From positions 2,400,001 to 2,464,000 of the forward strand of contig CP000071.1 in assembly GCA_000002445.1 (NCBI GenBank): 64,000 nucleotides of DNA, in the 5' to 3' direction. The position numbers and the translations under genes are program-made. Origin of the DNA: Trypanosoma brucei (lineage: Eukaryota). Each line of letters opens with the position of its first letter. The stretch's first letter is position 1. The notes below the pieces were generated by a model. The model was not told the origin of the DNA. It made no database searches and saw only the letters and a list, made by a program, of their open reading frames with translations. Shown here in pieces: positions 30,024 through 56,616 of this stretch.

Positions 30024-31225
30024 GTGAATGTCCAAAGCTGTTGTTGCACACAAGTTAATAACATCCGCTTCGCCGTTAACACTCCGTACACATTTCAGGC
30101 TCGTCGTGGGAATCGGACATGTAGGTTTATACGCGTGCCTGACTGTTACGCATTGCACCAACCCCCAAATTTACGTTTGGTTGACTAGGAAGTTAGGGTT
30201 GAAACTAGTAGGAAAGTAATGGCAAACACGGCTCTGCTGGAGCGAGAATATGCGCTACCACCGATGGGCGAGCTGTGCTTAGCGACCGCAAGCAGCGGCG
30301 GCGCTGCAACCGTTACGCTTCTTGCTCATAGTGTCGGTGAAAGTCTGTAACCGCGCGCTAGTGCTTTTTTGACAGAGTTGTTTCCAGGTGTGCGTTACCC
30401 TAATTATTTTTTTACGTGCTTCCTGTAGCTTAAACACCTAGCTCTTCTTCCTGATAGTCGCTACGGAGATCATGCTCTTCATCGGATGAAATCGTCGCTG
30501 TAGTCCACTGAAAGAGGCGGCACATCAAAAGGCAGTTGCAATGAACGGCTTATATGAAACACTCTCGTTAACGCAGGGAAAAAGTTGTTGCTATAAGAAT
30601 GTTTGCTACTCTACTTACTCAAATACACGGTAAGATTAGCCCAAGTTGTCAATGCCAATATCTCAGTGTCACCACCTCTTTCACGGATACAAAACTTTCA
30701 CTTCTCATATTAAGGTTTCGCAGTCGATCTCACCGCCACCAGATGTCACCAATAAGAAAATACTCCCCTAGTTCTATACATGCGCCCTAATTTCTGCCAC
30801 ACATTCTACTAATTTTGTTGTTTCGTTCCTTCTCTTATCCTTATTGCTTCAGGGTTTGTGTAGGTAAAGAAGTGTCATGACGTGATGTGTATTGGCTGCG
30901 TGTATTTGAAGCCAGACGCTGGTGAAGACTGACAGCTTATAGTCGGTAAGAACTGTTAGTTTACTATACGTGTGGGTTAACAGTAACTATCCCCTCCTTC
31001 TGTTGCCGTTTCATGGTTCGATGGCGTAGAGAAATTAACTGTGCGTTGTTATACTGACAGTGCTTCTATTGTTGCAGTGGGATTTTGTTTTCTTGCGATG
31101 TGAGCAGCATTACACTTTGCTGCTTTCCCTTTTTCCAATGCACATGTTCACCTTTCGTGTTTAATTGCTTGTTATCACAATTCCAATAGGTTAGGTCACA
31201 TTATTCCTTGCGTAGTGGAAGTGAA

Positions 31226-32608
31226 ATGCGAGCCACCAAAAAGCATCCGAATGATGGAAAGGGAGCCACTACCGATCCATTTGTTGACGGCAGCGATCCA
31301 ATTCCTTCTGAGGTCGCTGCTTTCGATCCTTTGCAGCAGGAACATGTTGATGTGGTAAAGGAAGTGAAACCCTCGCTTTTCGCCGTACTTCTTGAGAAGT
31401 TTATTCCCCATGGTGGATTGTGGTCCTGTGCCCTGAACCTGGCCTCTGCTACATTGGGTGCTGGCATTTGCTCACTGCCTGCAGGTTTCAATTTGAGTGG
31501 GATTGTTATGTCCTGCATTTACCTTGTTTGCGTTGCGGTTGGCACGGTGTACTCTCTTAATCTTCTTGCAAAGGTTGCAGTGAAGACGGGATCGCGTAAT
31601 TACGGAGAAGCTGCCAAAGCAGTGATGGGTCCACTTGCTGGTTACTACACGGCAGCGCTTATGATAGTGATGTGTTTTGGCGGCTCCGTTGCTTACATCA
31701 TCATTATTGGTATCATTTTGAAGGCTGTGCTCAATCGTGATGGTGTTCCGGAATATTTGAAATCAGAAAGTGGTAATCGGCTAATGACATCCATGGTGTG
31801 GTTGGTGATTATCTTGCCTATGTGCATTCCCAAGCAGGTTAATTCATTGCGCCACTTATCCTTTGTGGGTGTGATGTTTATTGTGTATTTTTCATGTGTT
31901 GTTATTGGCCATTCCATTAATAAGATCATTAATGAGGGTGTCGCTGATGGCATCGTGTACATGCGCACTGGAAATAGCGCTTTAGATGGCTTATCACTAT
32001 TTCTCTTCTCATTTATCTGCCAGCCGAACGCATTTGAAATATTCCGTGAGATGAAACACCGGTCGCCGCAACGCTTCACAATATATGGTACTGTCGGCAT
32101 GTCAATGTGTGCTGTGCTTTACTTCCTGGTTGGTTTATTTGGTTATTTGGAGTTTGGAGGGGATGCCATTGACACAGTGCTGTCTCTATATGATCCAGGT
32201 GAGAATGTTGCCGTTGCAATTGCGTACATTGGGGTTGCTGCCAAGGTTTGTGTTGCCTTTGCTTTGCACATCATACCAATGCGTGATGCACTGTACCATT
32301 GTACGGGTTGGCATGTTGATACTGTACCGTACTGGAAGCATTCCCTCATTGTGACGTCTATTACTTTAGCGGCTCTACTAATGGGACTCTTCATTCCGAA
32401 AGCATCCACTGTTTTTGGTCTCGTTGGTGCTTTCTGTGGCGGTCATATCGGACTTGTGTTGCCTCCGTTGTTCTACATGTACTCAGGTGGCTTCACGAGG
32501 GAAAAAGTTGGTAATATTGATTTCTTTGGCACTTATCTCCTTCTTTTTGTTGGTGTTGTGGCTGTTGTATTTGGCACGGTTTCAACAATATACAACACGG
32601 TGCCGTAG
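31226..32608 (+). CDS. Amino acid transporter of the AAT/AAAP family, type 1 copy
   Basis: The ORF track start at 31208 is TTG, and the first in-frame ATG is at 31226 (MRATKKHPNDG...). There are about 11 predicted TM helices. The conserved N-terminal AAAP motif is present (SCALNLASATLGAGICSLP). The protein is near-identical to the 39465 copy. Confidence 0.85.
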   Translation: MRATKKHPNDGKGATTDPFVDGSDPIPSEVAAFDPLQQEHVDVVKEVKPSLFAVLLEKFIPHGGLWSCALNLASATLGAGICSLPAGFNLSGIVMSCIYLVCVAVGTVYSLNLLAKVAVKTGSRNYGEAAKAVMGPLAGYYTAALMIVMCFGGSVAYIIIIGIILKAVLNRDGVPEYLKSESGNRLMTSMVWLVIILPMCIPKQVNSLRHLSFVGVMFIVYFSCVVIGHSINKIINEGVADGIVYMRTGNSALDGLSLFLFSFICQPNAFEIFREMKHRSPQRFTIYGTVGMSMCAVLYFLVGLFGYLEFGGDAIDTVLSLYDPGENVAVAIAYIGVAAKVCVAFALHIIPMRDALYHCTGWHVDTVPYWKHSLIVTSITLAALLMGLFIPKASTVFGLVGAFCGGHIGLVLPPLFYMYSGGFTREKVGNIDFFGTYLLLFVGVVAVVFGTVSTIYNTVP

Positions 32609-33365
32609 TATGATGATGATTTCTACGCGGGTATGTTCTTGGTGCACACATACTTTATTTTTTATCCATAGGTATTGCTTGTGTATATCCACATGCGCAA
32701 ATATATATTTATATATTTGTACCGTGTAATATTTAATGGGTTGTGATTTCTTTCATTTTCTTTGCAGTAGCAATATTTCTATGGATCTTCATCTTTCGGT
32801 TGCTCCCACATCTTGTCAGTGATTTATCACTATTATTACATTCTTTTGTGAAAATTATATATGTCGTTTCTTTATGATAACTGAATCCAGTTATTCATTT
32901 GTCGTACTCCCTTTTGTTTCCATTTTCCCCAAAAGGAGAGAGCACACACAACGGTTGGTGTCCCTTTCCACACTTGTTGTTATTGTTATCATTATTATCG
33001 GGCTAAACTTAGCATTATTCCTCCCCTAGTGTCACTGCTGCTGTCAACTGGGTTATTGTTGTATCTCTTCTCTTTTGTCAGTCTTAGTGATTCAACTGTT
33101 GGAGGAAAAGATCAGGGGCAAGACGTTGTGGTAACGTGTAACGAGATCGGATATCTGTGTTTGAGTTACTGGTTCCGTTTTTTGTTTGCAGTACACATCT
33201 CTTTGTTTGTCGACTTCCTATTGACTTCCAGCACTTTGTATAGAGTTTGCTACAGATGTATTTATTATCTTCTTTCTGGTATGTCTTTCAAAATCTCTTC
33301 GTTTTCACTTGGATGTTATATTACTATCTTGAAGCGTAAGGTTCGTATCATAATACGCTACCAAT

Positions 33366-34751
33366 ATGACGAATCAATCCAGCGGGGGCAATGACAGGGG
33401 CCGTCGTGACACGGATCCTTTTGCTCACGCTGGTGATGTAAAATTATCTTCTGACGCTATTGCACTTGATGTAACTCAGAAAGGCCAGGATGATGTGGTA
33501 AAGGAAGTGAAACCCTCGCTTTTCGCCGTACTTCTTGAGAAGTTTATTCCCCATGGTGGATTGTGGTCCTGTGCCCTGAACCTGGCCTCTGCTACATTGG
33601 GTGCTGGCATTTGCTCACTTCCGACTGGTTTCAATTTGAGTGGGATTGTTATGTCCTGCATTTACCTTGTTTGCGTTGCGGTTGGCACGGTGTACTCTCT
33701 TAATCTTCTTGCAAAGGTTGCAGTGAAGACGGGATCGCGTAATTACGGAGAAGCTGCGCGGATGGTGATGGGTCCACTTACTGGTTACTACGCGGCAGCG
33801 CTTATGATAGCGATGTGCTTTGGAGGTAACGTTGCTTACATCATCATTATTGGTATCATTTTGAAGGCTGTGCTCAATCGTGATAGTGTTCCGGAATATT
33901 TGAAATCAGAAAGTGGTAATCGGCTAATGACATTCATGGTGTGGTTGGTGATTATCTTGCCTATGTGCATTCCCAAGCGGGTTAATTCATTGCGCCACTT
34001 ATCCTTTGTGGGTGTGATCGCTATTGCTTATTTCGCATTTTTCATTGTTGGCCATTCCATTAATAAGATCATTAATGAGGGTGTCGCTGATGACATCGTG
34101 TACATGCGCACTGGAAATAGCGCTTTAGATGGCTTATCACTATTTCTCTTCTCATTTATCTGCCAGTCGAACGCATTTGAAATATTCCGTGAGATGAAAC
34201 ACCGGTCGCCGCAACGCTTCACAATATATGGTATTGTGGGTGTTGTGATGTGTGCTGTGCTTTACTTCCTGGTTGGTTTATTTGGTTATTTGGAGTTTGG
34301 AGGGAAATCTGTTGACACAGTGCTGTCTCTATATGATCCAGGTGAGAATGTTGCCCTTGCAATTGCGTATATTGGAATTGCAATTAAAATAACAGTTGCT
34401 CATGCTCTACACTCTATTCCCATACGTGACGGTCTGTACCATTGTGTGGGTTGGCATGTTGATACTGTACCGTATTGGAAGCATGTTGTTGTGGTTGTAA
34501 CTATTAACTTTACCTCACTGATTATTGGACTCTTCATTCCGAAAGCATCCACTGTTTTTGGTCTCGTTGGTGCTTTCTGTGGTGGTCATATCGGACTTGT
34601 GTTGCCTCCGTTGTTCTACATGTACTCAGGTGGCTTCACGAGGGAAAAAGTTGGTAATATTGATTTCTTTGGCACTTATCTCCTTCTTTTTGTTGGTGTT
34701 GTGGCTGTTGTATTTGGCACGGTAACGACCATAGCCGGTGCACTGTCTTGA
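33366..34751 (+). CDS. Amino acid transporter of the AAT/AAAP family, type 2 copy
   Basis: ATG at 33366 (MTNQSSGGNDRGRRDTDPF...). It shares the conserved TM core with type 1 but differs at the N-terminus and in a central block (FIVGHS, ADDIVY, IVGVVMCAVLY, VALAIAYIGIAIKITVAHALHSIPIRDGLYHCVGW, VVVVVTINFTSLIIG). It also has a distinct C-terminus (TVTTIAGALS). Confidence 0.85.
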   Translation: MTNQSSGGNDRGRRDTDPFAHAGDVKLSSDAIALDVTQKGQDDVVKEVKPSLFAVLLEKFIPHGGLWSCALNLASATLGAGICSLPTGFNLSGIVMSCIYLVCVAVGTVYSLNLLAKVAVKTGSRNYGEAARMVMGPLTGYYAAALMIAMCFGGNVAYIIIIGIILKAVLNRDSVPEYLKSESGNRLMTFMVWLVIILPMCIPKRVNSLRHLSFVGVIAIAYFAFFIVGHSINKIINEGVADDIVYMRTGNSALDGLSLFLFSFICQSNAFEIFREMKHRSPQRFTIYGIVGVVMCAVLYFLVGLFGYLEFGGKSVDTVLSLYDPGENVALAIAYIGIAIKITVAHALHSIPIRDGLYHCVGWHVDTVPYWKHVVVVVTINFTSLIIGLFIPKASTVFGLVGAFCGGHIGLVLPPLFYMYSGGFTREKVGNIDFFGTYLLLFVGVVAVVFGTVTTIAGALS

Positions 34752-35229
34752 CACATTAGATTGCAAATGGAGCGTCTATGGATGTTTAACCTTTATGAAT
34801 CCTCCTGTAGGAATTTGTGTGTGTAAATGAGAATTTCTTGATTCAATAAATAATTCTTTTGATAGAACCAAAAAAAGTAGTAATTAATTAAATGTGGTAA
34901 ATATCTTTTCTTATATTTTTGTTTTCATTCCTTTGGCTGCCTGCACGGCGTCGGTAATAATTGTAATTTGTACCGGTGCTGTTGGGACAGGTTGGTAGTT
35001 TGGCCTCCAGCTCAACCTGTAAGGGTGAGGGGGAATAGCCATGGTGATGGCATTAATTTTAACTTAAGGAGAAAGGGACCAACTGAGCATAAAGGGCAAC
35101 TTTAAGGAAATATATAAGGTTTAGGCAATATATACACGCAGGTATGTCTTGGGTGTAGAAACCCATGTGACTTATTTGCGTGACGTTTTTGCTTTCATTT
35201 TTCATTTTTTTTTTTTGGAAACCCTGCGT

Positions 35230-38200
35230 TACCAATGGTTTTGGATATGGGATTACATGGTATTATTTTGTACGAATTTCCTTATATAAATACACTGTCT
35301 TCTCCAATATTTTACAGCTGCCTGCCAGAGGGTGTAAGTTCTAGAAAGAAAAAAATATGTTTTATGATATCAAAGATGCTGCCTCATACACGATCGATTT
35401 TCAGAGAGAGAGGGTAATAAATGTCACGGCTTTTATGGAATCTGTTCGCCAAAAGGGACCAGCATCTTTTTCTTTCGACTTTGAACCAGTACAGAACCCG
35501 AGGGATGCATACCACGTGGATGGAATTCTGACAATCGAGGATGAAAACCCTAATGGTGTTTACTTTGACCGCGAACAGAAAATGGATCTGGGATCGCTGA
35601 GGCAATTGATGGTAAGTTTTGTGTTGCCTAGAAACTCAGATTTCCTAAAGGCTTTTTGAAGAGGCGAGAGAAGCAATGAATTTGGGGGCTTTAATATTTC
35701 CCTACCTATACTCCACCACAAGGGAAAAAACCAACACAACGGAGAAAGTTACACTGGAGGACGGTAACAACTACTACTACTCCTACCCTTTGTCCGCCAA
35801 TGAGTTACCCGACACGGACGGGAATAGTACGACCCTTACGCGCAGAAAAGTCGACAGCAGCTCAACGTATGAGAGGAGCCTTTCAAGAGATCTGGGAAAT
35901 GTCAAATGGAAATTAAAAACATGCAACAAGGTGGTCGTCGGTGAACGACGTCAAGGTTATTCTAGCTTCTACGCACGATTCGTATATTGTGACACTGGTT
36001 TCAGAAGAAAACAAAGTAGCAAAAAGGATGTGGACACACACAACTTGGGACAAACAGAAAGGGTCCATAATCCGAAGGTTCTATGCGTTTGCAGACAAAC
36101 ACGGACTACCGGCTGTCGAAACGACAATCCCCTTGTTTATTGTAAGTTTGCAACTGGCAAAGAGCACCACCATACAGTACACAAGGACACTACTATCATT
36201 ACTAGCCGCAGAGCATACACCAGCGCGAATGTATTTGTAGCCGGACTATGCAGAATGACAGGGGGAAATACCATAAAACAGGCTTGACCCATGTTGCGTT
36301 GGGAGCTCGATCTCGTATGCGACACTTTAACACTGGAGCGGGATCGAGTAGCTTTAAGACTATCCTGAATCACAGCTAGCAGATGGGGAGAAATAGCAGA
36401 GCTACAACAAGAGAATTTTGTGCTCCATCCACAAGACAAAAAAGATGATGCCATAGTGGTAAACTGAGGAGCACTCCCAAAGACATTCAAAAGCGACACA
36501 CACAGAACCGCGAAGTATGTGGTGATAAGCGGAGAAGATGCAGGAAGGATCCGAAGGGTAATCAGGGAAATGGAGGGTAGTGAAAAGCTCATAGCCATTA
36601 CAACGAAGGGAATGGAAACAATATTCTGCCCATTTGGGGTGACTGCACATTCAATAAAGAGAGGGGCTTTGGCACACCCAGAGTTGGCATTAGTGGCGTA
36701 AAAACACACGCCCTCGATTCAATATTATTAACACAATTGGGAAAGCACACAAACCCTCAGGAGCTTCCTCGAAGCACGGTAGGACGCTATCTGTGTCTAT
36801 GGACCGCCACCATCAACAAGTCGGAGTTGCGCATGACTGTGCTGATGTAAAACCCCTGAAAAGGGGAAAAACAGATTTACCATGGGATATGCCAGATAAT
36901 TCCCGCCAAGCAGGGATAGCTTTAGTAACCAGGAGTAAAACATTTTCAAGGGCATAGCATCACACGACGTTCGCAAGGACCACGGGTGGCGTCTAAGGAA
37001 GAAGAGATGACATTGCCTCTTCAGGAAGTAAATGTGGGCACATTGTATTTAGAACGGGTACGAAGACGAATGAAGGAGGAGACGCGGCAACGGTTTGAGA
37101 AGGTATGGAACTTGAAGATTGCCACAGAAGGAAAATCGAAAGAAAGAGACAGGGAGTCACATTTGCGGATTGCGGAAAAAGACGCTGTAATCATAAAAGA
37201 AGCAGGTGTTATAAGCCAACCTTCGGATCTTCCTACAAAGGGATGGGTCATACCTTTTTCAGTTGTGGAGTAGAAGTCGGCAGGAAAAAGACGCCGATTT
37301 ATTGCTTGGTCCAAGGTAAAAAATGCCAAAAATGATTACGAGGCCGAAGTCCCGTTGGGATATATATCCCAATATCTAAGTGCAGTTTATGATGAATCCG
37401 CAGGGTTGTTTGATTTAAAGGCTTCTTTTTTTCCGGATGAACATGCCACAAAAGACATTTGAGTGTGTCTCCGCTGTTGCACAGAAAAGTGGGGAACTCG
37501 TAGAATTGAATCAACTCCAATTGGTTAATAAATGAAGTCATGAAATTGTAAAGACATCACGAGAGTTTTGGCAGGAGATCCTGGGGCAGCGAAACCACAA
37601 TATGCGGCCACCAACGAATTGAGGGCGCACACATGGATCGACAACATCCGTATCAGTAGACCACACAAAACGGTCAAGGAATGGGGGGACCACATTGCTA
37701 AAAATATGAAAGAGTGCGGAGTAAATGTTGATGAGCAAAGAAATGGCAACACGTTACGAATTTATCGGGTTTTTATTTGAGCATGACAAACAGACGGTTT
37801 TGTTGAATGCAAAGACAATGCGGCGGATTCGAGAATCGGCTCCACTCGAGGTAGCGACCATACAACAGATGGAGAGAGTTGTATTCTGCATGATATATGC
37901 GGCTGGGGTTAGGGGAGAACCACTTTTTTCTTACTATACTTTCTTTTAAATGATGCGTTGGCGTTTATCTCGCCTAAATATGGGTTTGGTAAACCCCTCC
38001 GATTTGGTTTTTCTGCCAAAAAGTGTATTGAAGCTGGAGAAGCAGTGGATGAGCGAGTTGTTGAAAAATGTGCCAGTGGTTCCACCACAGGCTCAGCCCA
38101 CTACGGCCACGCTGGTGACAGATGCCTCCGTGCAGGGATGGGGAGGGATGTCATTTAAAGGTACAGGAGAGATTATAATAGCAGGAGGCTCCTGGGAAAC

Positions 38201-38560
38201 GGCACCTCATATGATATCATAAGGAGAAGTGCGAGCGATTCAATTCGCATTGTTAGCGATTCGGGGGCGTTTCGATGGGCCATTGCACATATGTGTGGAT
38301 AACACTGCTGTAATGCATATTATGAGAAAAGGCAACACGCATTCAAGCGCCCTAGTGCGATAGGCATCTGCAAAAAACAGGATATTACGACAAGAACGGA
38401 TAAGTGCCATATGGAGCTACGTACATTCCGGGATAAATCCGGCCGATGGGGCGTCTCGAGGGTTACTTGCCATGGGGTAGGACTTAGCGAAGGAAAGCGC
38501 GGGAGGCGGGATGAGAACGCTTTCAGCTCTTCCACATAGTTAGTAAATTATCGTTTAAGA
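35230..38560 (+). mobile_element. Degenerate retrotransposon remnant with an LTR/DIRS-type RT-RNase H (VIPER-like), interrupted by frameshifts and stops
   Basis: Several motifs sit in neighbouring broken + strand frames. There is an RT motif-C-like HTWIDNIRIS with downstream VKEWGDHIAKNMKECGVNVDEQ (about 37630-37740). The RT thumb reads YEFIGFLFEHDKQTVLLNAKTMRRIRESAPLEVATIQQMERVVFCMIYAAG (about 37750-37900). RNase H has TDASVQGWGG (D at about 38121), then GEVRAIQFALLAI...ICVDNTAV...HSGINPADGASRG (about 38220-38460) with one in-frame stop. The element lies exactly between the two AAT array copies. Confidence 0.55.
37300..38480 (+). pseudogene. Reverse transcriptase-RNase H pseudogene of the retroelement
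   Basis: The RT and RNase H motifs run across three short ORFs (37568-37780, 37725-37949, 37950-38222) plus a stop-containing continuation. The catalytic D, E, D and D of RNase H are retained in order. The HxxGxxNxxADxxSR terminal motif is typical of LTR/gypsy/DIRS RNase H, not of non-LTR elements. Confidence 0.5.
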
Positions 38561-39464
38561 TCATAGTTTGTGTAGGATGATGAGGAACGCTTACTGTTTC
38601 TTCAGCATGATAGTTATTTCCTATATATATATTTCTATGAAGTAAAGGGAAGGTGAACACAAAGCTATTCGGTTTTCAGTTGAAAAAATAAATGTATTGT
38701 ATTAAGGTTCTTTTCGGATACTGTGATGACGTATGTTTTTCCCTCCTTGTGCTAAATTTCTTTTTCGCTGGTATTCCTCTTTCCATAGATTCGTGGCTTC
38801 CTACCGTTTGGAACGATTACGGACCCCTACACACAATAAGTAAATTTCTTATATATTTCCTTTATATATTTCCTTTATATATATTCTTTATATATTTGTT
38901 TTTGATTTCTTTGGAGTTTTTAAGTCTATTTCTCGTTTGTTTTTTTGTATTCCTGTCTCGCATTTGCCATGTTGTCATTATGTCTGTAACCGAGATTGTC
39001 GTCGAGTGATGCCTATACATGCGCCCTAATTTCTGCCACACATTCTACTAATTTTGTTGTTTCGTTCCTTCTCTTATCCTTATTGCTTCAGGGTTTGTGT
39101 AGGTAAAGAAGTGCCATGACGTGATGTGTATTGGCTGCGTGTATTTGAAGCCAGACGCTGGTGAAGACTGACAGCTTATAGTCGGTAAGAACTGTTAGTT
39201 TACTATACGTGTGGGTTAACAGTAACCATCCCCTCCTTCTGTTGCCGTTTCATGGTTCGATGGCGTAGAGAAATTAACTGTGCGTTGTTATACTGACAGT
39301 GCTTCTATTGTTGCAGTGGGATTTTGTTTTCTTGCGATGTGAGCAGCATTACACTTTGCTGCTTTCCCTTTTTCCAATGCACATGTTCACCTTTCGTGTT
39401 TAATTGCTTGTTATCACAATTCCAATAGGTTAGGTCACATTATTCCTTGCGTAGTGGAAGTGAG

Positions 39465-40847
39465 ATGCGAGCCACCAAAAAGCATCCGAATGATGGAAAG
39501 GGAGCCACTACCGATCCATTTGTTGACGGCAGCGATCCAATTCCTTCTGAGGTCGCTGCTTTCGATCCTTCGCAGCAGGAGCATGTTGATGTGGTAAAGG
39601 AAGTGAAACCCTCGCTTTTCACCGTACTTCTTGAGAAGTTTATTCCCCATGGTGGATTGTGGTCCTGTGCCCTGAACCTGGCCTCTGCTACATTGGGTGC
39701 TGGCATTTGCTCACTGCCTGCAGGTTTCAATTTGAGTGGGATTGTTATGTCCTGCATTTACCTTGTTTGCGTTGCGGTTGGCACGGTGTACTCTCTTAAT
39801 CTTCTTGCAAAGGTTGCAGTGAAGACGGGATCGCGTAATTACGGAGAAGCTGCCAAAGCAGTGATGGGTCCACTTGCTGGTTACTACACGGCAGCGCTTA
39901 TGATAGTGATGTGCTTTGGCGGCTCCGTTGCTTACATCATCATTATTGGTATCATTTTGAAGGCTGTGCTCAATCGTGATGGTGTTCCGGAATATTTGAA
40001 ATCAGAGAGTGGTAATCGGCTAATGACATCCATGGTGTGGTTGGTGATTATCTTGCCTATGTGCATTCCCAAGCAGGTTAATTCATTGCGCCACTTATCC
40101 TTTGTGGGTGTGATGTTTATTGTGTATTTTTCATGTGTTGTTATTGGCCATTCCATTAATAAGATCATTAATGAGGGTGTCGCTGATGGCATCGTGTACA
40201 TGCGCACTGGAAATAGCGCTTTAGATGGCTTATCACTATTTCTCTTCTCATTTATCTGCCAGCCGAACGCATTTGAAATATTCCGTGAGATGAAACACCG
40301 GTCGCCGCAACGCTTCACAATATATGGTACTGTCGGCATGTCAATGTGTGCTGTGCTTTACTTCCTGGTTGGTTTATTTGGTTATTTGGAGTTTGGAGGG
40401 GATGCCATTGACACAGTGCTGTCTCTATATGATCCAGGTGAGAATGTTGCCGTTGCAATTGCGTACATTGGGGTTGCTGCCAAGGTTTGTGTTGCCTTTG
40501 CTTTGCACATCATACCAATGCGTGATGCGCTGTACCATTGTACGGGTTGGCATGTTGATACTGTACCGTACTGGAAGCATTCCCTTATTGTGACGTCTAT
40601 TACTTTAGCGGCTCTACTAATGGGACTCTTCATTCCGAAAGCATCCACTGTTTTTGGTCTCGTTGGTGCTTTCTGTGGTGGTCATATCGGACTTGTGTTG
40701 CCTCCGTTGTTCTACATGTACTCAGGTGGCTTCACGAGGGAAAAAGTTGGTAATATTGATTTCTTTGGCACTTATCTCCTTCTTTTTGTTGGTGTTGTGG
40801 CTGTTGTATTTGGCACGGTTTCAACAATATACAACACGGTGCCGTAG
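39465..40847 (+). CDS. Amino acid transporter of the AAT/AAAP family, type 1 copy
   Basis: The TTG start listed at 39447 was moved to the ATG at 39465. It differs from the 31226 copy by only a few substitutions (e.g. L to S in FDPSQQ, A to T in LFTVLL). Confidence 0.85.
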   Translation: MRATKKHPNDGKGATTDPFVDGSDPIPSEVAAFDPSQQEHVDVVKEVKPSLFTVLLEKFIPHGGLWSCALNLASATLGAGICSLPAGFNLSGIVMSCIYLVCVAVGTVYSLNLLAKVAVKTGSRNYGEAAKAVMGPLAGYYTAALMIVMCFGGSVAYIIIIGIILKAVLNRDGVPEYLKSESGNRLMTSMVWLVIILPMCIPKQVNSLRHLSFVGVMFIVYFSCVVIGHSINKIINEGVADGIVYMRTGNSALDGLSLFLFSFICQPNAFEIFREMKHRSPQRFTIYGTVGMSMCAVLYFLVGLFGYLEFGGDAIDTVLSLYDPGENVAVAIAYIGVAAKVCVAFALHIIPMRDALYHCTGWHVDTVPYWKHSLIVTSITLAALLMGLFIPKASTVFGLVGAFCGGHIGLVLPPLFYMYSGGFTREKVGNIDFFGTYLLLFVGVVAVVFGTVSTIYNTVP

Positions 40848-41604
40848 TATGATGATGATTTCTACGCGAGTATGTTCTTGGTGCACACATACTTTATTTT
40901 TTATCCATAGGTATTGCTTGTGTATATCCACATGCGCAAATATATATTTATATATTTGTACCGTGTAATATTTAATGGGTTGTGATTTCTTTCATTTTCT
41001 TTGCAGTAGCAATATTTCTATGGATCTTCATCTTTCGGTTGCTCCCACATCTTGTCAGTGATTTATCACTATTATTACATTCTTTTGTGAAAATTATATA
41101 TGTCGTTTCTTTATGATAACTGAATCCAGTTATTCATTTGTCGTACTCCCTTTTGTTTCCATTTTCCCCAAAAGGAGAGAGCACACACAACGGTTGGCGT
41201 CCCTTTCCACACTTGTTGTTATTGTTATCATTATTATCGGGGTAAACTTAGCATTATTCCTCCCCTAGTGTCACTGCTGCTGTCAACTGGGTTATTGTTG
41301 TATCTCTTCTCTTTTGTCAGTCTTAGTGATTCAACTGTTGGAGGAAAAGATCAGGGGCAAGACGTTGTGGTAACGTGTAACGAGATCGGATATCTGTGTT
41401 TGAGTTACTGGTTCCGTTTTTTGTTTGCAGTACACATCTCTTTGTCTGTCGACTTCCTATTGACTTCCAGCACTTTGTATAGAGTTTGCTACAGATGTAT
41501 TTATTATCTTCTTTCTGGTATGTCTTTCAAAATCTCTTCGTTTTCACTTGGATGTTATATTACTATCTTGAAGCGTAAGGTTCGTATCATAATACGCTAC
41601 CAAT

Positions 41605-42990
41605 ATGACGAATCAATCCAGCGGGGGCAATGACAGGGGCCGTCGTGACACGGATCCTTTTGCTCACGCTGGTGATGTAAAATTATCTTCTGACGCTATT
41701 GCACTTGATGTAACTCAGAAAGGCCAGGATGATGTGGTAAAGGAAGTGAAACCCTCGCTTTTCACCGTACTTCTTGAGAAGTTTATTCCCCATGGTGGAT
41801 TGTGGTCCTGTGCCCTGAACCTGGCCTCTGCTACATTGGGTGCTGGCATTTGCTCACTTCCGACTGGTTTCAATTTGAGTGGGATTGTTATGTCCTGCAT
41901 TTACCTTGTTTGCGTTGCGGTTGGCACGGTGTACTCTCTTAATCTTCTTGCAAAGGTTGCAGTGAAGACGGGATCGCGTAATTACGGAGAAGCTGCGCGG
42001 ATGGTGATGGGTCCACTTACTGGTTACTACGCGGCAGCGCTTATGATAGCGATGTGCTTTGGAGGTAACGTTGCTTACATCATCATTATTGGTATCATTT
42101 TGAAGGCTGTGCTCAATCGTGATGGTGTTCCGGAATATTTGAAATCAGAAAGTGGTAATCGGCTAATGACATCCATGGTGTGGTTGGTGATTATCTTGCC
42201 TATGTGCATTCCCAAGCAGGTTAATTCATTGCGCCACTTATCCTTTGTGGGTGTGATGTTTATTGTGTATTTTTCATGTGTTGTTATTGGCCATTCCATT
42301 AATAAGATCATTAATGAGGGTGTCGCTGATGGCATCGTGTACATGCGCACTGGAAATAGCGCTTTAGATGGCTTATCACTATTTCTCTTCTCATTTATCT
42401 GCCAGTCGAACGCATTTGAAATATTCCGTGAGATGAAACACCGGTCGCCGCAACGCTTCACAATATATGGTACTGTCGGCATGTCAATATGTGCTGTGCT
42501 TTACTTCCTGGTTGGTTTATTTGGTTATTTGGAGTTTGGAGGGGATGCCATTGACACAGTGCTGTCTCTATATGATCCAGGTGAGAATGTTGCCCTTGCA
42601 ATTGCGTACATTGGGGTTGCAATTAAAATAACAGTTGCTCATGCTCTACACGCTATTCCCATACGTGACGGTCTGTACCATTGTGTGGGTTGGCATGTTG
42701 ATACTGTACCGTATTGGAAGCATGTTGTTGTGGTTGTAACTATTAACTTTACCTCACTGATTATTGGACTCTTCATTCCGAAAGCATCCACTGTTTTTGG
42801 TCTCGTTGGTGCTTTCTGTGGTGGTCATATCGGACTTGTGTTGCCTCCGTTGTTCTACATGTACTCAGGTGGCTTCACGAGGGAAAAAGTTGGTAATATT
42901 GATTTCTTTGGCGCTTATCTCCTTCTTTTTGTTGGTGTTGTGGCTGTTGTATTTGGCACGGTTTCAACAATATACAACACGGTGCCGTAG
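41605..42990 (+). CDS. Amino acid transporter of the AAT/AAAP family, a type 2/type 1 mosaic
   Basis: ATG at 41605. The N-terminus and the block VALAIAYIGVAIKITVAHALHAIPIRDGLYHCVGW...VVVVVTINFTSLIIG are type 2. The central region (MTSMVW...FIVYFSCVVIGHS...ADGIVY...TVGMSICAVLY...GDAIDTV) is type 1. The C-terminus TVSTIYNTVP and the 3' flank are also type 1. Confidence 0.8.
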   Translation: MTNQSSGGNDRGRRDTDPFAHAGDVKLSSDAIALDVTQKGQDDVVKEVKPSLFTVLLEKFIPHGGLWSCALNLASATLGAGICSLPTGFNLSGIVMSCIYLVCVAVGTVYSLNLLAKVAVKTGSRNYGEAARMVMGPLTGYYAAALMIAMCFGGNVAYIIIIGIILKAVLNRDGVPEYLKSESGNRLMTSMVWLVIILPMCIPKQVNSLRHLSFVGVMFIVYFSCVVIGHSINKIINEGVADGIVYMRTGNSALDGLSLFLFSFICQSNAFEIFREMKHRSPQRFTIYGTVGMSICAVLYFLVGLFGYLEFGGDAIDTVLSLYDPGENVALAIAYIGVAIKITVAHALHAIPIRDGLYHCVGWHVDTVPYWKHVVVVVTINFTSLIIGLFIPKASTVFGLVGAFCGGHIGLVLPPLFYMYSGGFTREKVGNIDFFGAYLLLFVGVVAVVFGTVSTIYNTVP

Positions 42991-43740
42991 TATGATGATG
43001 ATTTCTACGCGGGTATGTTCTTGGTGTACACATACTTTATTTCTAGGTATTGCTTGTGTATATCCACATGCGCAAATATTTATTTATATATTTGTACCGT
43101 GTAATATTTAATGGGCTGTGATTTCTTTCATTTTCTTTGCAGTAGCAATATTTCTATGGATCTTCATCTTTCAGTTGCTCCCACATCTTGTCAGTGATTT
43201 ATCACTATTATTACATTCTTTTGTGAAAATTATATATGTCGTTTCTTTATGATAACTGAATCCAGTTATTCCTTTGTCGTACTCCCTTTTGTTTCCATTT
43301 TCCCCAAAAGGAGAGAGCACACACAACGGTTGGCGTCCCTTTCCACACTTGTTGTTATTGTTATCATTATTATCGGGGTAAACTTAGCATTATTCCTCCC
43401 CTAGTGTCACTGCTGCTGTCAACTGGGTTATTGTTGTATCTCTTCTCTTTTGTCAGTCTTAGTGATTCAACTGTTGGAGGAAAAGATCAGGGGCAAGACG
43501 TTGTGGTAACGTGTAACGAGATCGGATATCTGTGTTTGAGTTACTGGTTCCGTTTTTTGTTTGCAGTACACATCTCTTTGTTTGTCGACTTCCTATTGAC
43601 TTCCAGCACTTTGTATAGAGTTTGCTGCAGATGTATTTATTATCTTCTTTCTGGTATGTCTTTCAAAATCTCTTCGTTTTCACTTGGATGTTATATTACT
43701 ATCTTGAAGCGTAAGGTTCGTATCATAATACGCTACCAAT

Positions 43741-45123
43741 ATGACGAATCAATCCAGCGGGGGCAATGACAGGGGCCGTCGTGACACGGATCCTTTTGCT
43801 CACGCTGGTGATGTAAAATTATCTTCTGACGCTATTGCACTTGATGTAACTCAGAAAGGCCAGGATGATGTGGTAAAGGAAGTGAAACCCTCGCTTTTCA
43901 CCGTACTTCTTGAGAAGTTTATTCCCCATGGTGGATTGTGGTCCTGTGCCCTGAACCTGGCCTCTGCTACATTGGGTGCTGGCATTTGCTCACTTCCGAC
44001 TGGTTTCAATTTGAGTGGGATTGTTATGTCCTGCATTTACCTTGTTTGCGTTGCGGTTGGCACGGTGTACTCTCTTAATCTTCTTGCAAAGGTTGCAGTG
44101 AAGACGGGATCGCGTAATTACGGAGAAGCTGCGCGGATGGTGATGGGTCCACTTGCTGGCTACTACGCGGCAGCGCTTATGATAGCGATGTGCTTTGGAG
44201 GTAACGTTGCTTACATCATCATTATTGGTATCATTTTGAGAGCTCTATTTAGTCGTGATGGTGTTCCGGAATATTTGAAATCAGAGAGTGGTAATCGGCT
44301 AATGACATCCATGGTGTGGTTGGTGATTATCTTGCCTATGTGCATTCCCAAGCAGGTTAATTCATTGCGCCACTTATCCTTTGTGGGTGTGATGTTTATT
44401 GTGTATTTTTCATGTGTTGTTATTGGCCATTCCATTAATAAGATCATTAATGAGGGTGTCGCTGATGGCATCGTGTACATGCGCACTGGAAATAGCGCTT
44501 TAGATGGCTTATCACTATTTCTCTTCTCATTTATCTGCCAGTCGAACGCATTTGAAATATTCCGTGAGATGAAACACCGGTCGCCGCAACGCTTCACAAT
44601 ATATGGTACTGTCGGCATGTCAATGTGTGCTGTGCTTTACTTCCTGGTTGGTTTATTTGGTTATTTGGAGTTTGGAGGGGATGCCATTGACACAGTGCTG
44701 TCTCTATATGATCCAGGTGAGAATGTTGCCGTTGCAATTGCGTACATTGGGGTTGCTGCCAAGGTTTGTGTTGCCTTTGCTTTGCACATCATACCAATGC
44801 GTGATGCGCTGTACCATTGTACGGGTTGGCATGTTGATACTGTACCTTACTGGAAGCATTCCCTTATTGTGACGTCTATTACTTTAGCGGCTCTACTAGT
44901 GGGACTCTTCATTCCGAAAGCATCCACTGTTTTTGGTCTCGTTGGTGCTTTCTGTGGTGGTCATATCGGACTTGTGTTGCCTCCGTTGTTCTACATGTAC
45001 TCAGGTGGCTTCACGAGGGAAAAAGTTGGTAATATTGATTTCTTTGGTACTTATCTCCTTCTTTTTGTTGGTGTTGTGGCTGTTGTACTTGGTACTGGAT
45101 CGGCAGTATATTATGCTGTGTAG
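43741..45123 (+). CDS. Amino acid transporter of the AAT/AAAP family, a type 2/type 1 mosaic with a unique 3' end
   Basis: ATG at 43741. The first 150 aa or so are type 2. There is a unique ILRALFSRDGV segment. The remainder is type 1 (VAVAIAYIGVAAKVCVAFALHIIPMRDALYHCTGW, SLIVTSITLAALL). The last 16 aa (VVAVVLGTGSAVYYAV) match neither type. Confidence 0.8.
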   Translation: MTNQSSGGNDRGRRDTDPFAHAGDVKLSSDAIALDVTQKGQDDVVKEVKPSLFTVLLEKFIPHGGLWSCALNLASATLGAGICSLPTGFNLSGIVMSCIYLVCVAVGTVYSLNLLAKVAVKTGSRNYGEAARMVMGPLAGYYAAALMIAMCFGGNVAYIIIIGIILRALFSRDGVPEYLKSESGNRLMTSMVWLVIILPMCIPKQVNSLRHLSFVGVMFIVYFSCVVIGHSINKIINEGVADGIVYMRTGNSALDGLSLFLFSFICQSNAFEIFREMKHRSPQRFTIYGTVGMSMCAVLYFLVGLFGYLEFGGDAIDTVLSLYDPGENVAVAIAYIGVAAKVCVAFALHIIPMRDALYHCTGWHVDTVPYWKHSLIVTSITLAALLVGLFIPKASTVFGLVGAFCGGHIGLVLPPLFYMYSGGFTREKVGNIDFFGTYLLLFVGVVAVVLGTGSAVYYAV

Positions 45124-45594
45124 TTGTTTTTTATGTTAATCGTTGAATATTGTGGGAAGGCACTAGTTTTTTTTTCCTGGATGTTGTGGGGACACTGTTT
45201 TTTATGAGGCCAAGTAATGTTTTTCTGTTTTTTAATATTTGTTTAAAAATTTTTTCTTTGTGGTTTTTATTTTTAATTTATTTTGTTGTTGCTGATTAAT
45301 TGTTTAGTGTACGCCGCTTCGTGTTGTATCCTTATTTTGCTGTACTGTTAAGTGTAGTAGCTTGCTTTTGTTGTTACGGATGAATCGGGGTTGTATCGTC
45401 GCTTTGCGGGTAACCTCCGATGATTTTTTCTTCTTCCTTCTTTGCCCCAGCTGGATGCCGTACGCGACAATCTCGAAGGGAGTTTTCCTTTATTTAGAAT
45501 ATAAGATATTTCCCCCCTATTATTGCTGTCGTGTCGTTGCGGGTTTTAGCTTTATCGAAGCTTAATAATGTTTGTTGCTAACGGTGGGGTTCTA

Positions 45595-45809
45595 TACATG
45601 CGCCCTAATTTCTGCCACACATTCTACTAATTTTGTTGTTTCGTTCCTTCTCTTATCCTTATTGCTTCAGGGTTTGTGTAGGTAAAGAAGTGTCATGACG
45701 TGATGTGTATTGGCTGCGTGTATTTGAAGCCAGACGCTGGTGAAGACTGACAACTTATAGTCGGTGAGAACTGTTAGTTTACTATACGTGTGGGTTAACG
45801 GTAATTAAA
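45595..45809 (+). repeat. Truncated third copy of the array upstream element, marking the 3' boundary of the array
   Basis: This 215 bp is near-identical to 30777-30990 and 39007-39220 (atacatgcgccctaatttctgccacacattc...gtgtgggttaac). It then diverges into unique G+T-rich sequence. Confidence 0.8.
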
Positions 45810-46748
45810 GGAATTTCTTAAAAGTTTGTGTGTTTTTTTTTGTAATGGCACGTGGCCGGAGGTTTGATGCGAAGTGGTGTCTGGGGTTGGGCGCAGCTGT
45901 TGCAAAATGAGTTACAAGTTATTTCCTTGTCTGTAATTGCGTTGATTTATACTGGAATGGTGACCTGATGCTTTTGTGAGTTTATGATGTGTTTGGATGT
46001 GCTGCGTCTGTTGTTGGATCGCTGAAGTGTAGTTCCTTTAGTGGCGACGTTGAGGTTTGATTTGTGGTTATGTGGTCTCTTTTGTAGCTTTGTGGTGTTT
46101 ATGTAGTTTTTTTTCATCTTTTAGCTCTTATTTGCTTCGAGATTCAGTGGTCAGTGAAGCAGTAGTTTTCGAATTTATATCTGTAGCCTTTCTGTGTCGC
46201 TGGGGTTATTGTTTTTATAGTTGAGTTGGATGGTTGTTGTTGTTGCAAGTTTGTGATTAATTGAGTTACATGTTCTCTAGGATCTTATTGAGAGATATTT
46301 AAAGGTTAGTTCGTGCTCTTAATTTAGAGTAAATGAAGATTATGGGGATTGTCTAGTGGCTTTTCAGTGCGTCATACAGCATTTACATAATCGGCCGTCT
46401 GCTTATCTTTTTTTTTTTTGTGTGTGTGTGGTAGAACCTAATGGAGATATTATTTTTTGCACATTGGTTTTGTGACTTTAGTTTTGGATCATCATGCGAG
46501 GTATCCCTCCATATTTAGTTGTTTCTTATTATTGCCATTTGCTGTGTGCTTGTCCTCACATCGTTAAGCCATGGATTTGTTATCTGCCGTTGTCGATTGT
46601 GATTTTGTTGAAAGCAGGTGCGTTATTGCTTCCAATCCATTTCTCTTTTTTTCCCTCATCCGTTTCAATGACACACACGTAAGGGATACATATTAGTCCC
46701 GTTTGTCTTACTTTTGTTCCTCCCTTCTCACCTTTGCAGCTCACTTTT

Positions 46749-53245: not shown

Positions 53246-53344
53246 TGATATTTGTTTCATTTACTGCAGGTGAGGTTTCTGTTAGTAATTGGTGATTTCA
53301 GCCAGCGACCAACTAAATCAGACCCTAAGCTGTTATTGGACCTA

Positions 53345-56464: not shown

Positions 56465-56600
56465 TTATTATCATTATTATTATTATTATCATTATTATTA
56501 TTATTATTTCCGTTATTCCTTTTAATTTCTTTTTGTTTTATTGGTTGTGGAATTTTACAAGGGCCTTTGAAGCACACAACACACACACACACACACAAGG
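56465..56600. repeat. Imperfect (ATT)n run followed by an (AC)n microsatellite, just upstream of transporter copy B
   Basis: attattatcattattattattattatcattattattattattatt at about 56465-56510, and acacacacacacacacacaa at about 56581-56600. Confidence 0.85.
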
Positions 56601-56616
56601 AGCGCGTGAAGGAGTG

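What the first reader, a model, noticed from the sequence alone, without database searches (positions are those of the whole stretch)
30777..45809. Tandem amino acid transporter array with finely mosaic genes, evidence of ongoing gene conversion
There are five AAT genes of two sequence types. The first two units (T1-T2 and T1-mosaic) are near-identical over several kb, including a 758-bp spacer. The gene at 41605 alternates T2-T1-T2-T1 blocks. The gene at 43741 is T2 at the 5' end, T1 in the body, and has a third, unique 3' end (VVAVVLGTGSAVYYAV). Breakpoints fall inside conserved TM-core sequence, as expected for homology-driven conversion. Such arrays generate transporter diversity, which is relevant to nutrient and drug uptake in trypanosomes.
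Basis: seen in the sequence. Interest (0 to 1): 0.65.

Follow-up and report, generated by a model that had tools for sequence, protein, structure and literature searches.

The report
Mosaic amino-acid transporter array, already described
This is the five-gene AAT9 amino-acid transporter array on Trypanosoma brucei chromosome 8; its block-wise mosaic genes are real products of recombination between neighbouring copies, but this locus and the phenomenon were published in 2007 and 2010.

Summary
The window is T. brucei brucei TREU927 chromosome 8. Region 30771-45807 carries five Aa_trans (PF01490) genes of two types: G1/G3 are T1, G2 is T2. G4 reads T2-T1-T2-T1. G5 has a T2 5' end, a T1 body and its own 3' end. 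Two 3.95-kb units are 98.7% identical, or 99.5% outside one 493-bp tract.

A runs test on diagnostic sites gives 8 runs against 72.6 expected for G4 (z=-12.4). Synonymous divergence between T1 and T2 swings from about 1.4 to 0 between adjacent blocks.

Copies in the same array position in T. b. gambiense DAL972 (6 copies) and T. b. equiperdum IVM-t1 (9 copies) carry different block combinations. Recombination is therefore recent or ongoing, and the mosaics are not a single-assembly artefact.

The mechanism is homologous recombination between tandem paralogues, both gene conversion and unequal crossing-over.

It is not new. The locus is AAT9Tb (Tb927.8.8220-8260). Jackson 2007 reported its dimorphism and a conversion from copy 3 to copy 5. 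Jackson et al. 2010 showed subspecies-specific mosaics in 31 of 35 T. brucei arrays.

The PHI test it proposed is non-significant on the five genes alone.

The parts
30771..30989 (+). R1: about 216-bp repeat that opens array unit 1
   Evidence: 98.2-98.6% identical to 39013-39225 and 45589-45807
31226..32608 (+). G1, type T1 AAT gene (Tb927.8.8220, AAT9.1), 460 aa
   Evidence: Aa_trans E=2.4e-50. 100% identical to a TREU927 protein. 99.42% nt identity to G3.
32609..33365 (+). Spacer S1 (757 bp) between a T1 gene and the next gene
   Evidence: 4 differences from S2; 9 mismatches plus a 7-nt indel against S3
33366..34751 (+). G2, type T2 AAT gene (Tb927.8.8230), 461 aa. Its last 28 nt (C-terminus ...TVTTIAGALS) abut the retroelement.
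   Evidence: The same 3' end precedes the same insert in DAL972 gene c.
33885..34377 (+). 493-bp tract where G2 differs from G4 at 33 sites (6.7%). The rest of the 3.95-kb units differs by 0.5%.
   Evidence: Most of G2's state here (T2 state at G2 CDS nt 520-882) is found in none of the 19 other copies from three strains; part of it (around G2 CDS nt 940-946) does occur in gambiense and equiperdum copies.
34752..39012 (+). 4.3-kb degenerate retroelement relic with frame-shifted RT and RNase H remnants, probably VIPER-like
   Evidence: Only broken ORFs. The RNase H-like part is 75% identical to another T. brucei ORF. Distant relatives are trypanosomatid RT/RNase H proteins. A tyrosine recombinase is not confirmed.
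39013..39228 (+). R2: repeat that opens unit 2
39465..40847 (+). G3, type T1 (Tb927.8.8240), 460 aa
   Evidence: 8 nt differences from G1
40848..41604 (+). Spacer S2 (757 bp)
41605..42068 (+). G4 block 1, T2-type (G4 = Tb927.8.8250, whole gene 41605-42990)
   Evidence: 89 of 89 diagnostic sites are T2
42124..42616 (+). G4 block 2, T1-type tract flanked on both sides by T2 sequence (a conversion tract)
   Evidence: 32 of 34 diagnostic sites are T1. 3 differences from G1 in columns 526-1014.
42621..42822 (+). G4 block 3, T2-type. It contains the ancient 'block C' (columns 1015-1170).
   Evidence: 50 of 50 diagnostic sites are T2. dS against T1 is about 1.2-1.3.
42963..43740 (+). G4 block 4: T1-type 3' end (42963-42990), continuing into spacer S3 (42991-43740), which is of the type that follows T1 genes
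   Evidence: 16 of 16 sites are T1. S3 is about 98% identical to S1 and S2. This is the signature of an unequal crossover.
43741..44204 (+). G5 5' part, T2-type (G5 = Tb927.8.8260, whole gene 43741-45123)
   Evidence: 88 of 89 sites are T2. 0 differences from G2 and G4 in the first 132 columns.
44260..44901 (+). G5 body, T1-type, including block C. This corresponds to the published conversion from copy 3 to copy 5.
   Evidence: 81 of 83 sites are T1. PMC1810246 Table 3. The last-position copies in other strains differ here by 26/156 and 51/156.
45088..45123 (+). 3' end specific to the last array copy (...LGTGSAVYYAV)
   Evidence: It differs by only 1-2 of 36 nt in the last copy of DAL972 and IVM-t1.
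45124..45588 (+). Unique 3' flank of the last copy
   Evidence: No match elsewhere in the array
45589..45807 (+). R3: repeat that closes the array

Best explanation
Region 30771-45807 is the AAT9 tandem array of T. brucei brucei TREU927 chromosome 8 (Tb927.8.8220-8260). It holds five genes for AAAP-family (Aa_trans) permeases.

Shown:
- An old duplication produced two paralogue types, T1 and T2. They remain saturated at synonymous sites (dS above 1) in three short blocks: the N-terminal tail, a block of about 150 nt covering residues 337-388, and the last 30-40 nt.
- Everything else has been homogenised (dS 0-0.1).
- A unit R-T1-spacer-T2 then duplicated recently; the two units differ by 0.5%.

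Inferred mechanism:
- Homology-dependent repair between misaligned copies moved tracts of a few hundred bp without crossover. The example is the 493-bp T1 tract inside G4.
- The same process also produced unequal crossovers. G4's T1 3' end plus a T1-type spacer gives the G3-G4-G5 triplet, and copy number differs between strains.
- The process continues on the time-scale of strain divergence.

Speculative consequence: the array is a shuffled set of permeases in which N-terminal tail, core block, C-terminus and 3' UTR are recombined.
For: Identity of the locus:
- The G1 query matches TREU927 proteins at 100% on a 2,481,190-bp contig. The five TREU927 array proteins carry consecutive accessions AAZ13579-13583.
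- There are five copies, with the first and third clustering together.
- A PDE-like gene and then two more Aa_trans genes (AAT10) lie downstream. This matches Table 1 of PMC1810246.
- The S28 phosphosite is assigned to Tb927.8.8230.8250 and .8260, which fits the T2-type N-terminus shared by G2, G4 and G5.

Mosaicism:
- Site patterns.
- Runs tests: z=-12.4 for G4 and z=-11.4 for G5, with 0 of 20000 shuffles reaching the observed value. The control gene G3 is not significant.
- dS between G1 and G2 by block: 1.47, 0.115, 0, 0.08, 1.33, 0.022, 1.08.
- The units differ at 18 of about 3457 sites outside one tract and at 33 of 493 sites inside it.
- PHI with the DAL972 copies gives z=-33 (6 copies) and z=-31.5 (11 copies), with a minimum of 11 recombination events.

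Recency:
- Background divergence between strains in the downstream single-copy flank is 0.9-1.4%.
- Copies in the same array position nevertheless differ in block C by 26/156 and 51/156 (last copy), 51/156 (copy before the retroelement) and 47/156 (copy after it). Neighbouring blocks differ by only 0-2.

Unequal crossover:
- S3 is the spacer type that follows T1 genes.
- Copy number is 5, 6 and 9.

Prior report: PMC1810246 Table 3 lists a conversion in AAT9Tb at 739-1066 from donor 3 to recipient 5, GENECONV p=7.9e-17.
Against: - PHI on the five window copies alone is not significant (p=0.57-0.58). Their main site patterns (13|245 and 24|135) fit a single tree, so the within-window case rests on spatial clustering and dS heterogeneity.
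- Direction is unresolved for the 493-bp tract: either G4 was converted by T1, or G2 received or retained a variant. G2's state is seen in no other copy.
- Differences between strains could partly reflect sorting of old allelic array haplotypes rather than new events.
- The IVM-t1 assembly is a hybrid with only 7,508 PacBio reads. Three of its nine copies are frameshifted, so its copy number is provisional.
- No reads were available to verify the TREU927 assembly.
Confidence: 0.9

Rival explanations
1. The mosaics are old, stable gene types. Present variation comes only from unequal crossing-over or allelic sorting of whole genes, not from continuing short-tract conversion.
For: The G4-like pattern recurs in DAL972 gene e and IVM-t1 copies 3-8, with 13-16 nt differences over the whole gene. 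The 470/526 junction and the 1224/1365 junction are shared across strains.
Against: The last copy is anchored by its own 3' end and flank, yet it shows three nested extents of the T1 tract in three strains. G4's T1 tract ends at 1018 in TREU927 but at about 882 in the others. The gene after the retroelement is pure T1 in TREU927 but carries T2 block C in DAL972. Whole-gene reshuffling cannot produce these differences.
Confidence: 0.15
2. Assembly or haplotype chimera: the TREU927 mosaic genes were created by mis-joining reads from near-identical copies or from the two homologous chromosomes.
For: Tandem arrays are prone to collapse, as PMC1810246 itself warns. No read data could be examined here.
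Against: Near-identical mosaic types appear in two independently produced assemblies. Every ORF is intact. The two units are separated by a unique 4.3-kb element, and the copies differ enough in block C and at their 3' ends to anchor Sanger reads.
Confidence: 0.04
3. No recombination: the blocks reflect local differences in mutation rate or selection along genes that diverged on a single tree.
For: The five window copies are nearly tree-compatible (PHI p=0.58).
Against: Synonymous divergence differs more than 50-fold between adjacent blocks: 24 of 39 synonymous sites against 1 of 46. G2 and G4 are identical over kilobases, including non-coding spacer, except for one 493-bp tract. Adding DAL972 copies gives massive incompatibility.
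Confidence: 0.01

Closest known systems
AAT9Tb locus (Tb927.8.8220, n=5) as described by Jackson 2007, BMC Evol Biol 7:26 (PMC1810246)
   Same: It is the same locus: chromosome 8, five tandem copies, copies 1 and 3 clustering apart from the rest, and partial conversion of copy 5 by copy 3 detected with GENECONV and SISCAN.
   Different: The paper lists only that one event. Not reported there: the T2-T1-T2-T1 structure of copy 4, the crossover signature in the 4-5 spacer, the retroelement between copies 2 and 3, and the comparison with DAL972 and IVM-t1. The paper says AAT9Tb could not be tested for concerted evolution.
Dimorphic AAT4Tb and AAT7Tb arrays of T. brucei (PMC1810246)
   Same: Two sequence types alternate along the array and short tracts are exchanged between types.
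   Different: They are different loci (chromosome 4; Tb927.8.7600) and different AAT clades. Their reported tracts are 19-205 bp, against about 0.5-0.6 kb here.
Subspecies-specific sequence mosaics in T. brucei tandem arrays (Jackson 2007, PMC1855330; Jackson et al. 2010, PMC2854126)
   Same: It is the same general phenomenon. Mosaics were found in 31 of 35 arrays compared between T. b. brucei and T. b. gambiense, with PHI, LRT and GARD breakpoints.
   Different: Table 2 of that paper lists the AAT arrays at Tb927.8.7600 and Tb927.8.4740 but not Tb927.8.8220.
Segmental gene conversion that generates mosaic VSG genes in T. brucei
   Same: New mosaics are assembled from related donors by homologous recombination (mentioned in PMC2854126).
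   Different: VSG mosaics form by transfer into a telomeric expression site under immune selection. Here the exchange is between adjacent chromosome-internal copies, with no expression site and no shown selection.

Membership tests
AAAP / Aa_trans permeases (Pfam PF01490) | Full-length match to the Aa_trans profile above the gathering score | tested here: met
   G1, G2, G4 and G5 score 161-172 bits against a cut-off of 25.6, covering profile positions 4-409 of 410
AAAP / Aa_trans permeases (Pfam PF01490) | Multi-pass membrane topology (about 11 transmembrane segments) | tested here: inconclusive
   A crude Kyte-Doolittle scan finds about 9-10 hydrophobic segments. No dedicated topology predictor was run.
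AAAP / Aa_trans permeases (Pfam PF01490) | Amino-acid transport activity | not testable with these tools
   No functional study of AAT9 was found. The literature holds only a phosphosite and a proteomic mention.
AAT9Tb locus of T. brucei (Jackson 2007) | Located on TREU927 chromosome 8, with proteins identical to the annotated ones | tested here: met
   The G1 query matches TREU927 proteins at 100% on a 2,481,190-bp contig. The array proteins have consecutive accessions AAZ13579-83.
AAT9Tb locus of T. brucei (Jackson 2007) | Five tandem copies, with the first and third clustering apart from the others | tested here: met
   G1-G3 identity is 99.4%. G1 against G2, G4 and G5 is 87-92%.
AAT9Tb locus of T. 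brucei (Jackson 2007) | Followed by the two-copy AAT10 locus (Tb927.8.8290/8300) | tested here: met
   Aa_trans genes at 53252-54760 and 56533-58032 follow two intervening genes. Table 1 of PMC1810246.
AAT9Tb locus of T. brucei (Jackson 2007) | Copy 5 carries a tract identical to copy 3 | tested here: met
   G5 is T1 at columns 526-1167. It has 2 differences from G3 in block C, against 51 from G2/G4-like copies.
Gene conversion / unequal crossing-over in a tandem array | Block-wise switches of parental similarity beyond chance | tested here: met
   Runs tests give z=-12.4 and z=-11.4, with 0 of 20000 shuffles reaching the observed value
Gene conversion / unequal crossing-over in a tandem array | Heterogeneous synonymous divergence along paralogues | tested here: met
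   dS ranges from 0 to 1.47 between blocks
Gene conversion / unequal crossing-over in a tandem array | Phylogenetic incompatibility between sites (PHI) | tested here: inconclusive
   Not significant for the five window copies (p=0.58). Highly significant once DAL972 copies are added (z=-31 to -35).
Gene conversion / unequal crossing-over in a tandem array | A donor-type tract flanked on both sides by recipient-type sequence (non-crossover conversion) | tested here: met
   G4 42124-42616 is T1 between T2 blocks. The surrounding unit is 99.5% identical to unit 1.
Gene conversion / unequal crossing-over in a tandem array | Copy-number change between lineages (unequal crossover) | tested here: met
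   5, 6 and 9 copies in TREU927, DAL972 and IVM-t1. The IVM-t1 count is provisional.
Gene conversion / unequal crossing-over in a tandem array | Dependence on the homologous recombination machinery; events observed in real time | not testable with these tools
   This needs experiments or long-read population data
VIPER-like (tyrosine-recombinase) retroelement, for the 34752-39012 insert | RT and RNase H coding remnants | tested here: met
   A T. brucei paralogue is 75% identical. 707 distant relatives were found. The four top representatives looked up are a Trypanosoma melophagium, an Angomonas and a Diplonema protein plus one unnamed Logan contig; the six scanned give RVT_1, RVT_3 and RT_RNaseH matches, mostly weak or below Pfam's cut-off.
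VIPER-like (tyrosine-recombinase) retroelement, for the 34752-39012 insert | Tyrosine recombinase domain | tested here: inconclusive
   There is only a motif-level resemblance (…HSIKRGA…). Pfam gives no integrase hit. PDB integrase hits have E=0.5-1.3.

The most novel reading that the evidence does not exclude
The three blocks that have escaped homogenisation are the N-terminal cytosolic tail, the block of about 50 residues at 337-388, and the C-terminus with its 3' UTR. All three have dS above 1, while the rest of the gene is near 0. They may be functional cassettes kept distinct by selection. Recombination would then reassort them almost freely. By my own tally of the site patterns, not a computed count, 9 of the 12 possible combinations of N-terminus, block C and 3' end occur across three strains. 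On this reading the array would be a combinatorial generator of transporter isoforms with different specificity or regulation, not just a dosage array undergoing neutral concerted evolution.
Probability: 0.2. Interest if true: 0.4.

Novelty: already known. Interest (0 to 1): 0.15.

Why it matters
It confirms that the first-stage reader can recognise real recombination mosaics from raw sequence. Biologically it adds only detail to a published picture. T. brucei tandem arrays, including this AAT9 array, evolve by concerted evolution punctuated by partial conversion, which gives strain-specific isoforms. The practical points are modest:
- AAT9 copies cannot be treated as one-to-one orthologues between strains.
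- Short-read mapping, peptide assignment and RNAi or knock-out designs for Tb927.8.8220-8260 must allow for block-wise identity.
- Any functional difference between T1 and T2 most likely lies in the three non-homogenised blocks.

Tried and rejected
- PHI and a minimum-recombination count on the five window genes. PHI was not significant (p=0.57-0.58) because the main site patterns are mutually compatible. I replaced it with triplet runs tests, block-wise dS and multi-strain PHI.
- Exact-protein look-ups of G5, G4, G2 and P0001. These are not on record. Related loci were reached through the DAL972 and IVM-t1 proteins instead.
- The AAT10 genes downstream as donors for G2's private tract. Rejected: about 40% amino-acid identity and no nucleotide match. 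No T. brucei paralogue closer than the array itself appeared in the protein search.
- A trace of G5's 3' flank after G2 or before R2. None was found.
- Pfam and PDB searches for a tyrosine recombinase in the insert. Nothing was significant.
P0091 was used instead.
- Rfam and tandem-repeat scans of 28-50 kb. These found no RNA family and only one 13-bp microsatellite at 38849-38897.
Full report
**What is there.** ORF listing shows five intact genes of 460-461 codons on the + strand. After choosing the first ATG they are G1 31226-32608, G2 33366-34751, G3 39465-40847, G4 41605-42990 and G5 43741-45123. The four scanned (G1, G2, G4, G5) match Pfam Aa_trans (PF01490) end to end at E=1e-47 to 1e-50. 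A CCDC39-like gene lies upstream. A gene with a faint PDEase match lies downstream, followed by two further, distantly related Aa_trans genes at 53252-54760 and 56533-58032.

**Identity of the locus.**
- A protein search with G1 returns 100% identical proteins of Trypanosoma brucei brucei TREU927 on a 2,481,190-bp contig.
- The five TREU927 array proteins carry consecutive accessions AAZ13579-AAZ13583.
- Table 1 of Jackson 2007 (PMC1810246) lists locus AAT9 = Tb927.8.8220 with five copies, followed by AAT10 = Tb927.8.8290 with two.
[quoted passage not shown] That is the pattern here: G1-G3 identity is 99.42%, while G1 against G2, G4 and G5 is 87-92%.
- A 2026 phosphoproteome assigns one S28 peptide to Tb927.8.8230.8250 and .8260. 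This fits the T2-type N-terminus shared by G2, G4 and G5.
- The window region is therefore Tb927.8.8220-8260.

**Checking the repeats.**
- Self-BLAST aligns 30774-34723 with 39013-42962 at 98.73% over 3951 bp.
- Region by region, the two units differ at 8 of 1383 sites in G1/G3, 4 of 757 in the spacer, 1 of 471 in the first third of G2/G4 and 2 of 337 in the last part.
- They differ at 33 sites within 33885-34377 (6.7%).
- Outside that 493-bp tract the units are about 99.5% identical.
- A repeat of about 216 bp (R) opens each unit (30771, 39013) and recurs after the last gene (45589).
- The layout is R-G1-S1-G2-[4.3-kb insert]-R-G3-S2-G4-S3-G5-[465-bp unique flank]-R.
- S3 (750 bp) is the same spacer type as S1 and S2, with 9 mismatches and one 7-nt indel.

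**Checking the mosaics.**
- G1 is taken as T1 and G2 as T2.
- G4 reads T2 at columns 4-470 (89 sites) and T1 at 526-1018 (32 sites plus two isolated T2 sites). It then reads T2 at 1023-1224 (50 sites) and T1 at 1365-1392 (16 sites).
- That is 8 runs against 72.6 +/- 5.2 under site shuffling (z=-12.4; 0 of 20000).
- G5 reads T2 at 4-470 and T1 at 526-1167, then has its own 3' end (z=-11.4).
- The control gene G3 shows no clustering.

**Why this needs recombination.**
- PHI on the five copies alone is not significant (p=0.57-0.58). The dominant site patterns, {G1,G3 | G2,G4,G5} and {G2,G4 | G1,G3,G5}, fit a single tree, and G2's private differences are uninformative.
- The decisive within-window evidence is the distribution of synonymous change. 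dS between G1 and G2 is 1.47 (columns 1-132), 0.115 (133-471), 0 (472-525), 0.08 (526-1014), 1.33 (1015-1170), 0.022 (1171-1353) and 1.08 (1354-1392).
- G4 and G5 have no differences in the first 132 columns yet have dS=1.2 in block C.
- G2 and G4 sit in units that are 99.5% identical, non-coding spacer included, apart from one sharply bounded tract.
- Point mutation on a tree cannot produce this pattern.

**Other strains.**
- The syntenic array in T. b. gambiense DAL972 has six copies: a, b, c, insert, d, e, f.
- In T. b. equiperdum IVM-t1 nine copies lie at a regular pitch of about 2.14 kb, with no insert.
- With the gambiense copies, PHI is overwhelming: z=-32.9 for its six copies and z=-31.5 for eleven copies, with a minimum of 11 recombination events.
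- A G4-like mosaic occurs in DAL972 gene e and IVM-t1 copies 3-8. It differs from G4 by 13-16 nt in all. This argues against an assembly chimera.
- Copies in the same array position differ in whole blocks, while neighbouring blocks differ by only 0-2 nt:
  - Last copy, anchored by its conserved private 3' end: 26/156 (G5 vs DAL972 f) and 51/156 (G5 vs IVM-t1 copy 9) in block C.
  - Copy before the insert: 51/156 (G2 vs DAL972 c).
  - Copy after the insert: 47/156 (G3 vs DAL972 d).
- Background divergence between strains in the downstream single-copy flank is only 0.9-1.4%.
- Block exchange has therefore occurred on the time-scale of strain divergence, or divergent array haplotypes still segregate.
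- Some junctions are inherited, not independent events. These are the 470/526 junction, present in every gene with a T2-type 5' end except G2, and the 1224/1365 junction.

**Mechanism.**
- Shown: two ancient paralogue types, extensive homogenisation, a recent unit duplication, an internal T1 tract in G4 flanked by T2 sequence, a T1 3' end in G4 that continues into a T1-type spacer, and copy-number differences of 5, 6 and 9.
- Inferred: homologous recombination between misaligned tandem copies. It resolves either without crossover (conversion tracts of about 0.5-0.6 kb) or with crossover (hybrid genes and gain or loss of copies, including loss of the insert in IVM-t1).
- Two of G4's three breakpoints lie in 55-nt and 140-nt stretches that are identical between the types. 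The third lies within 4 nt inside the variable block. All three fall in or next to hydrophobic segments on a crude hydropathy scan.
- Direction is unresolved for the 493-bp tract. Most of G2's state there (G2 CDS nt 520-882) occurs in none of the other 19 copies examined. The AAT10 genes are far too divergent to be donors.

**The insert.**
- 34752-39012 contains only broken ORFs.
- Its RNase H-like part is 75% identical to another T. brucei ORF.
- That ORF has hundreds of distant relatives. The four top representatives looked up are a Trypanosoma melophagium protein, an Angomonas protein, a Diplonema protein and one unnamed Logan contig.
- The six scanned gave mostly weak or sub-threshold Pfam RVT_1, RVT_3 and RT_RNaseH matches.
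- A tyrosine recombinase could not be confirmed.
- It is a degenerate retroelement relic. That it is VIPER-like is an inference: VIPER is reported as an extinct element in T. brucei (PMC6681497).
- DAL972 has it at the same junction, after a gene with the same G2-type 3' end.
- The two strains' copies are only 94% identical. The divergence is block-wise: about 15% in four stretches and 1-3% elsewhere.

**Comparison with what is known.**
- Jackson 2007 (PMC1810246) reported for this locus a partial conversion at positions 739-1066 from donor copy 3 to recipient copy 5, with GENECONV p=7.9e-17 and SISCAN p=1.25e-18. That is G5's T1 body.
- The paper also discusses conversion and unequal crossing-over as the forces acting on AAT arrays.
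- Jackson et al. [quoted passage not shown] It reports recombination in 31 of 35 arrays, though Tb927.8.8220 is not in its table.
- New here are only details: the four-block structure of copy 4, the crossover signature, the relic between copies 2 and 3, the strain comparison for this array, and the failure of PHI on five copies.
- No functional characterisation of AAT9 was found. The suggested relevance to drug uptake is speculation.

**Verdict.** Novelty: already known. Interest is low (0.15). The most novel reading left open is that the three non-homogenised blocks are selected cassettes that recombination reassorts. By my own tally of the site patterns, not a computed count, 9 of 12 combinations occur across three strains. 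I put its probability at about 0.2.

Noticed in passing
window 34752-39012: A 4.3-kb degenerate RT/RNase H retroelement relic, probably VIPER-like, sits between array units 1 and 2. It starts immediately after G2's stop codon; G2's last 28 nt differ from those of every other copy in the window.
   Followed up: partly
window 35700-36100, 36900-37100, 37900-38500, 38700-39000 vs L002 13530-18223: The relic is only about 94% identical between TREU927 and DAL972. The divergence is block-wise: about 15% in these stretches and 1-3% elsewhere, while the downstream flank (45124-49571) is 98.6% identical between these two strains. The relic itself looks mosaic, perhaps through ectopic conversion from other copies of the element.
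   Followed up: partly
L005 1437-19940 (T. b. equiperdum IVM-t1, CM010679.1): This array has nine copies at a pitch of about 2.14 kb and no retroelement. Six copies share one mosaic pattern, and three unannotated copies carry frameshifts. It could be a real expansion with loss of the relic, or an artefact of a low-coverage hybrid PacBio assembly.
   Followed up: partly
window 33885-34377 (G2): Most of G2's variant in this tract (T2 state at G2 CDS nt 520-882) is found in none of 19 other AAT9 copies from three strains. The differences are clustered and mostly non-synonymous (dN/dS about 0.8), in short patches, for example MFIVYFSCVVI to IAIAYFAFFIV. The donor or origin is unknown.
   Followed up: partly
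window 44240-44260 (G5): A short patch encoding RALFS instead of KAVLN looks unique within the window but is shared with DAL972 gene b. It is therefore a segregating micro-cassette, not a private mutation.
   Followed up: yes
window 53252-54760 and 56533-58032: Two further Aa_trans genes are 66% identical to each other and about 40% identical to AAT9. They correspond to the AAT10 locus (Tb927.8.8290/8300). One of them, AAT10.2, was recently described as a branched-chain amino-acid transporter (PMC13524880).
   Followed up: partly
window 31391, 33531 vs 39630, 41770, 43906 (alignment column 166): One site, coding Ala or Thr in ...PSLF(A/T)VLL..., groups G1 with G2 against G3, G4 and G5. It follows array position rather than gene type, which suggests very short local homogenisation between neighbouring genes.
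   Followed up: no
L001 6468-6567 / L002 4328-4427: The DAL972 record has a 100-N gap inside the CCDC39-like gene upstream of the array, which splits that gene's annotation in two.
   Followed up: no
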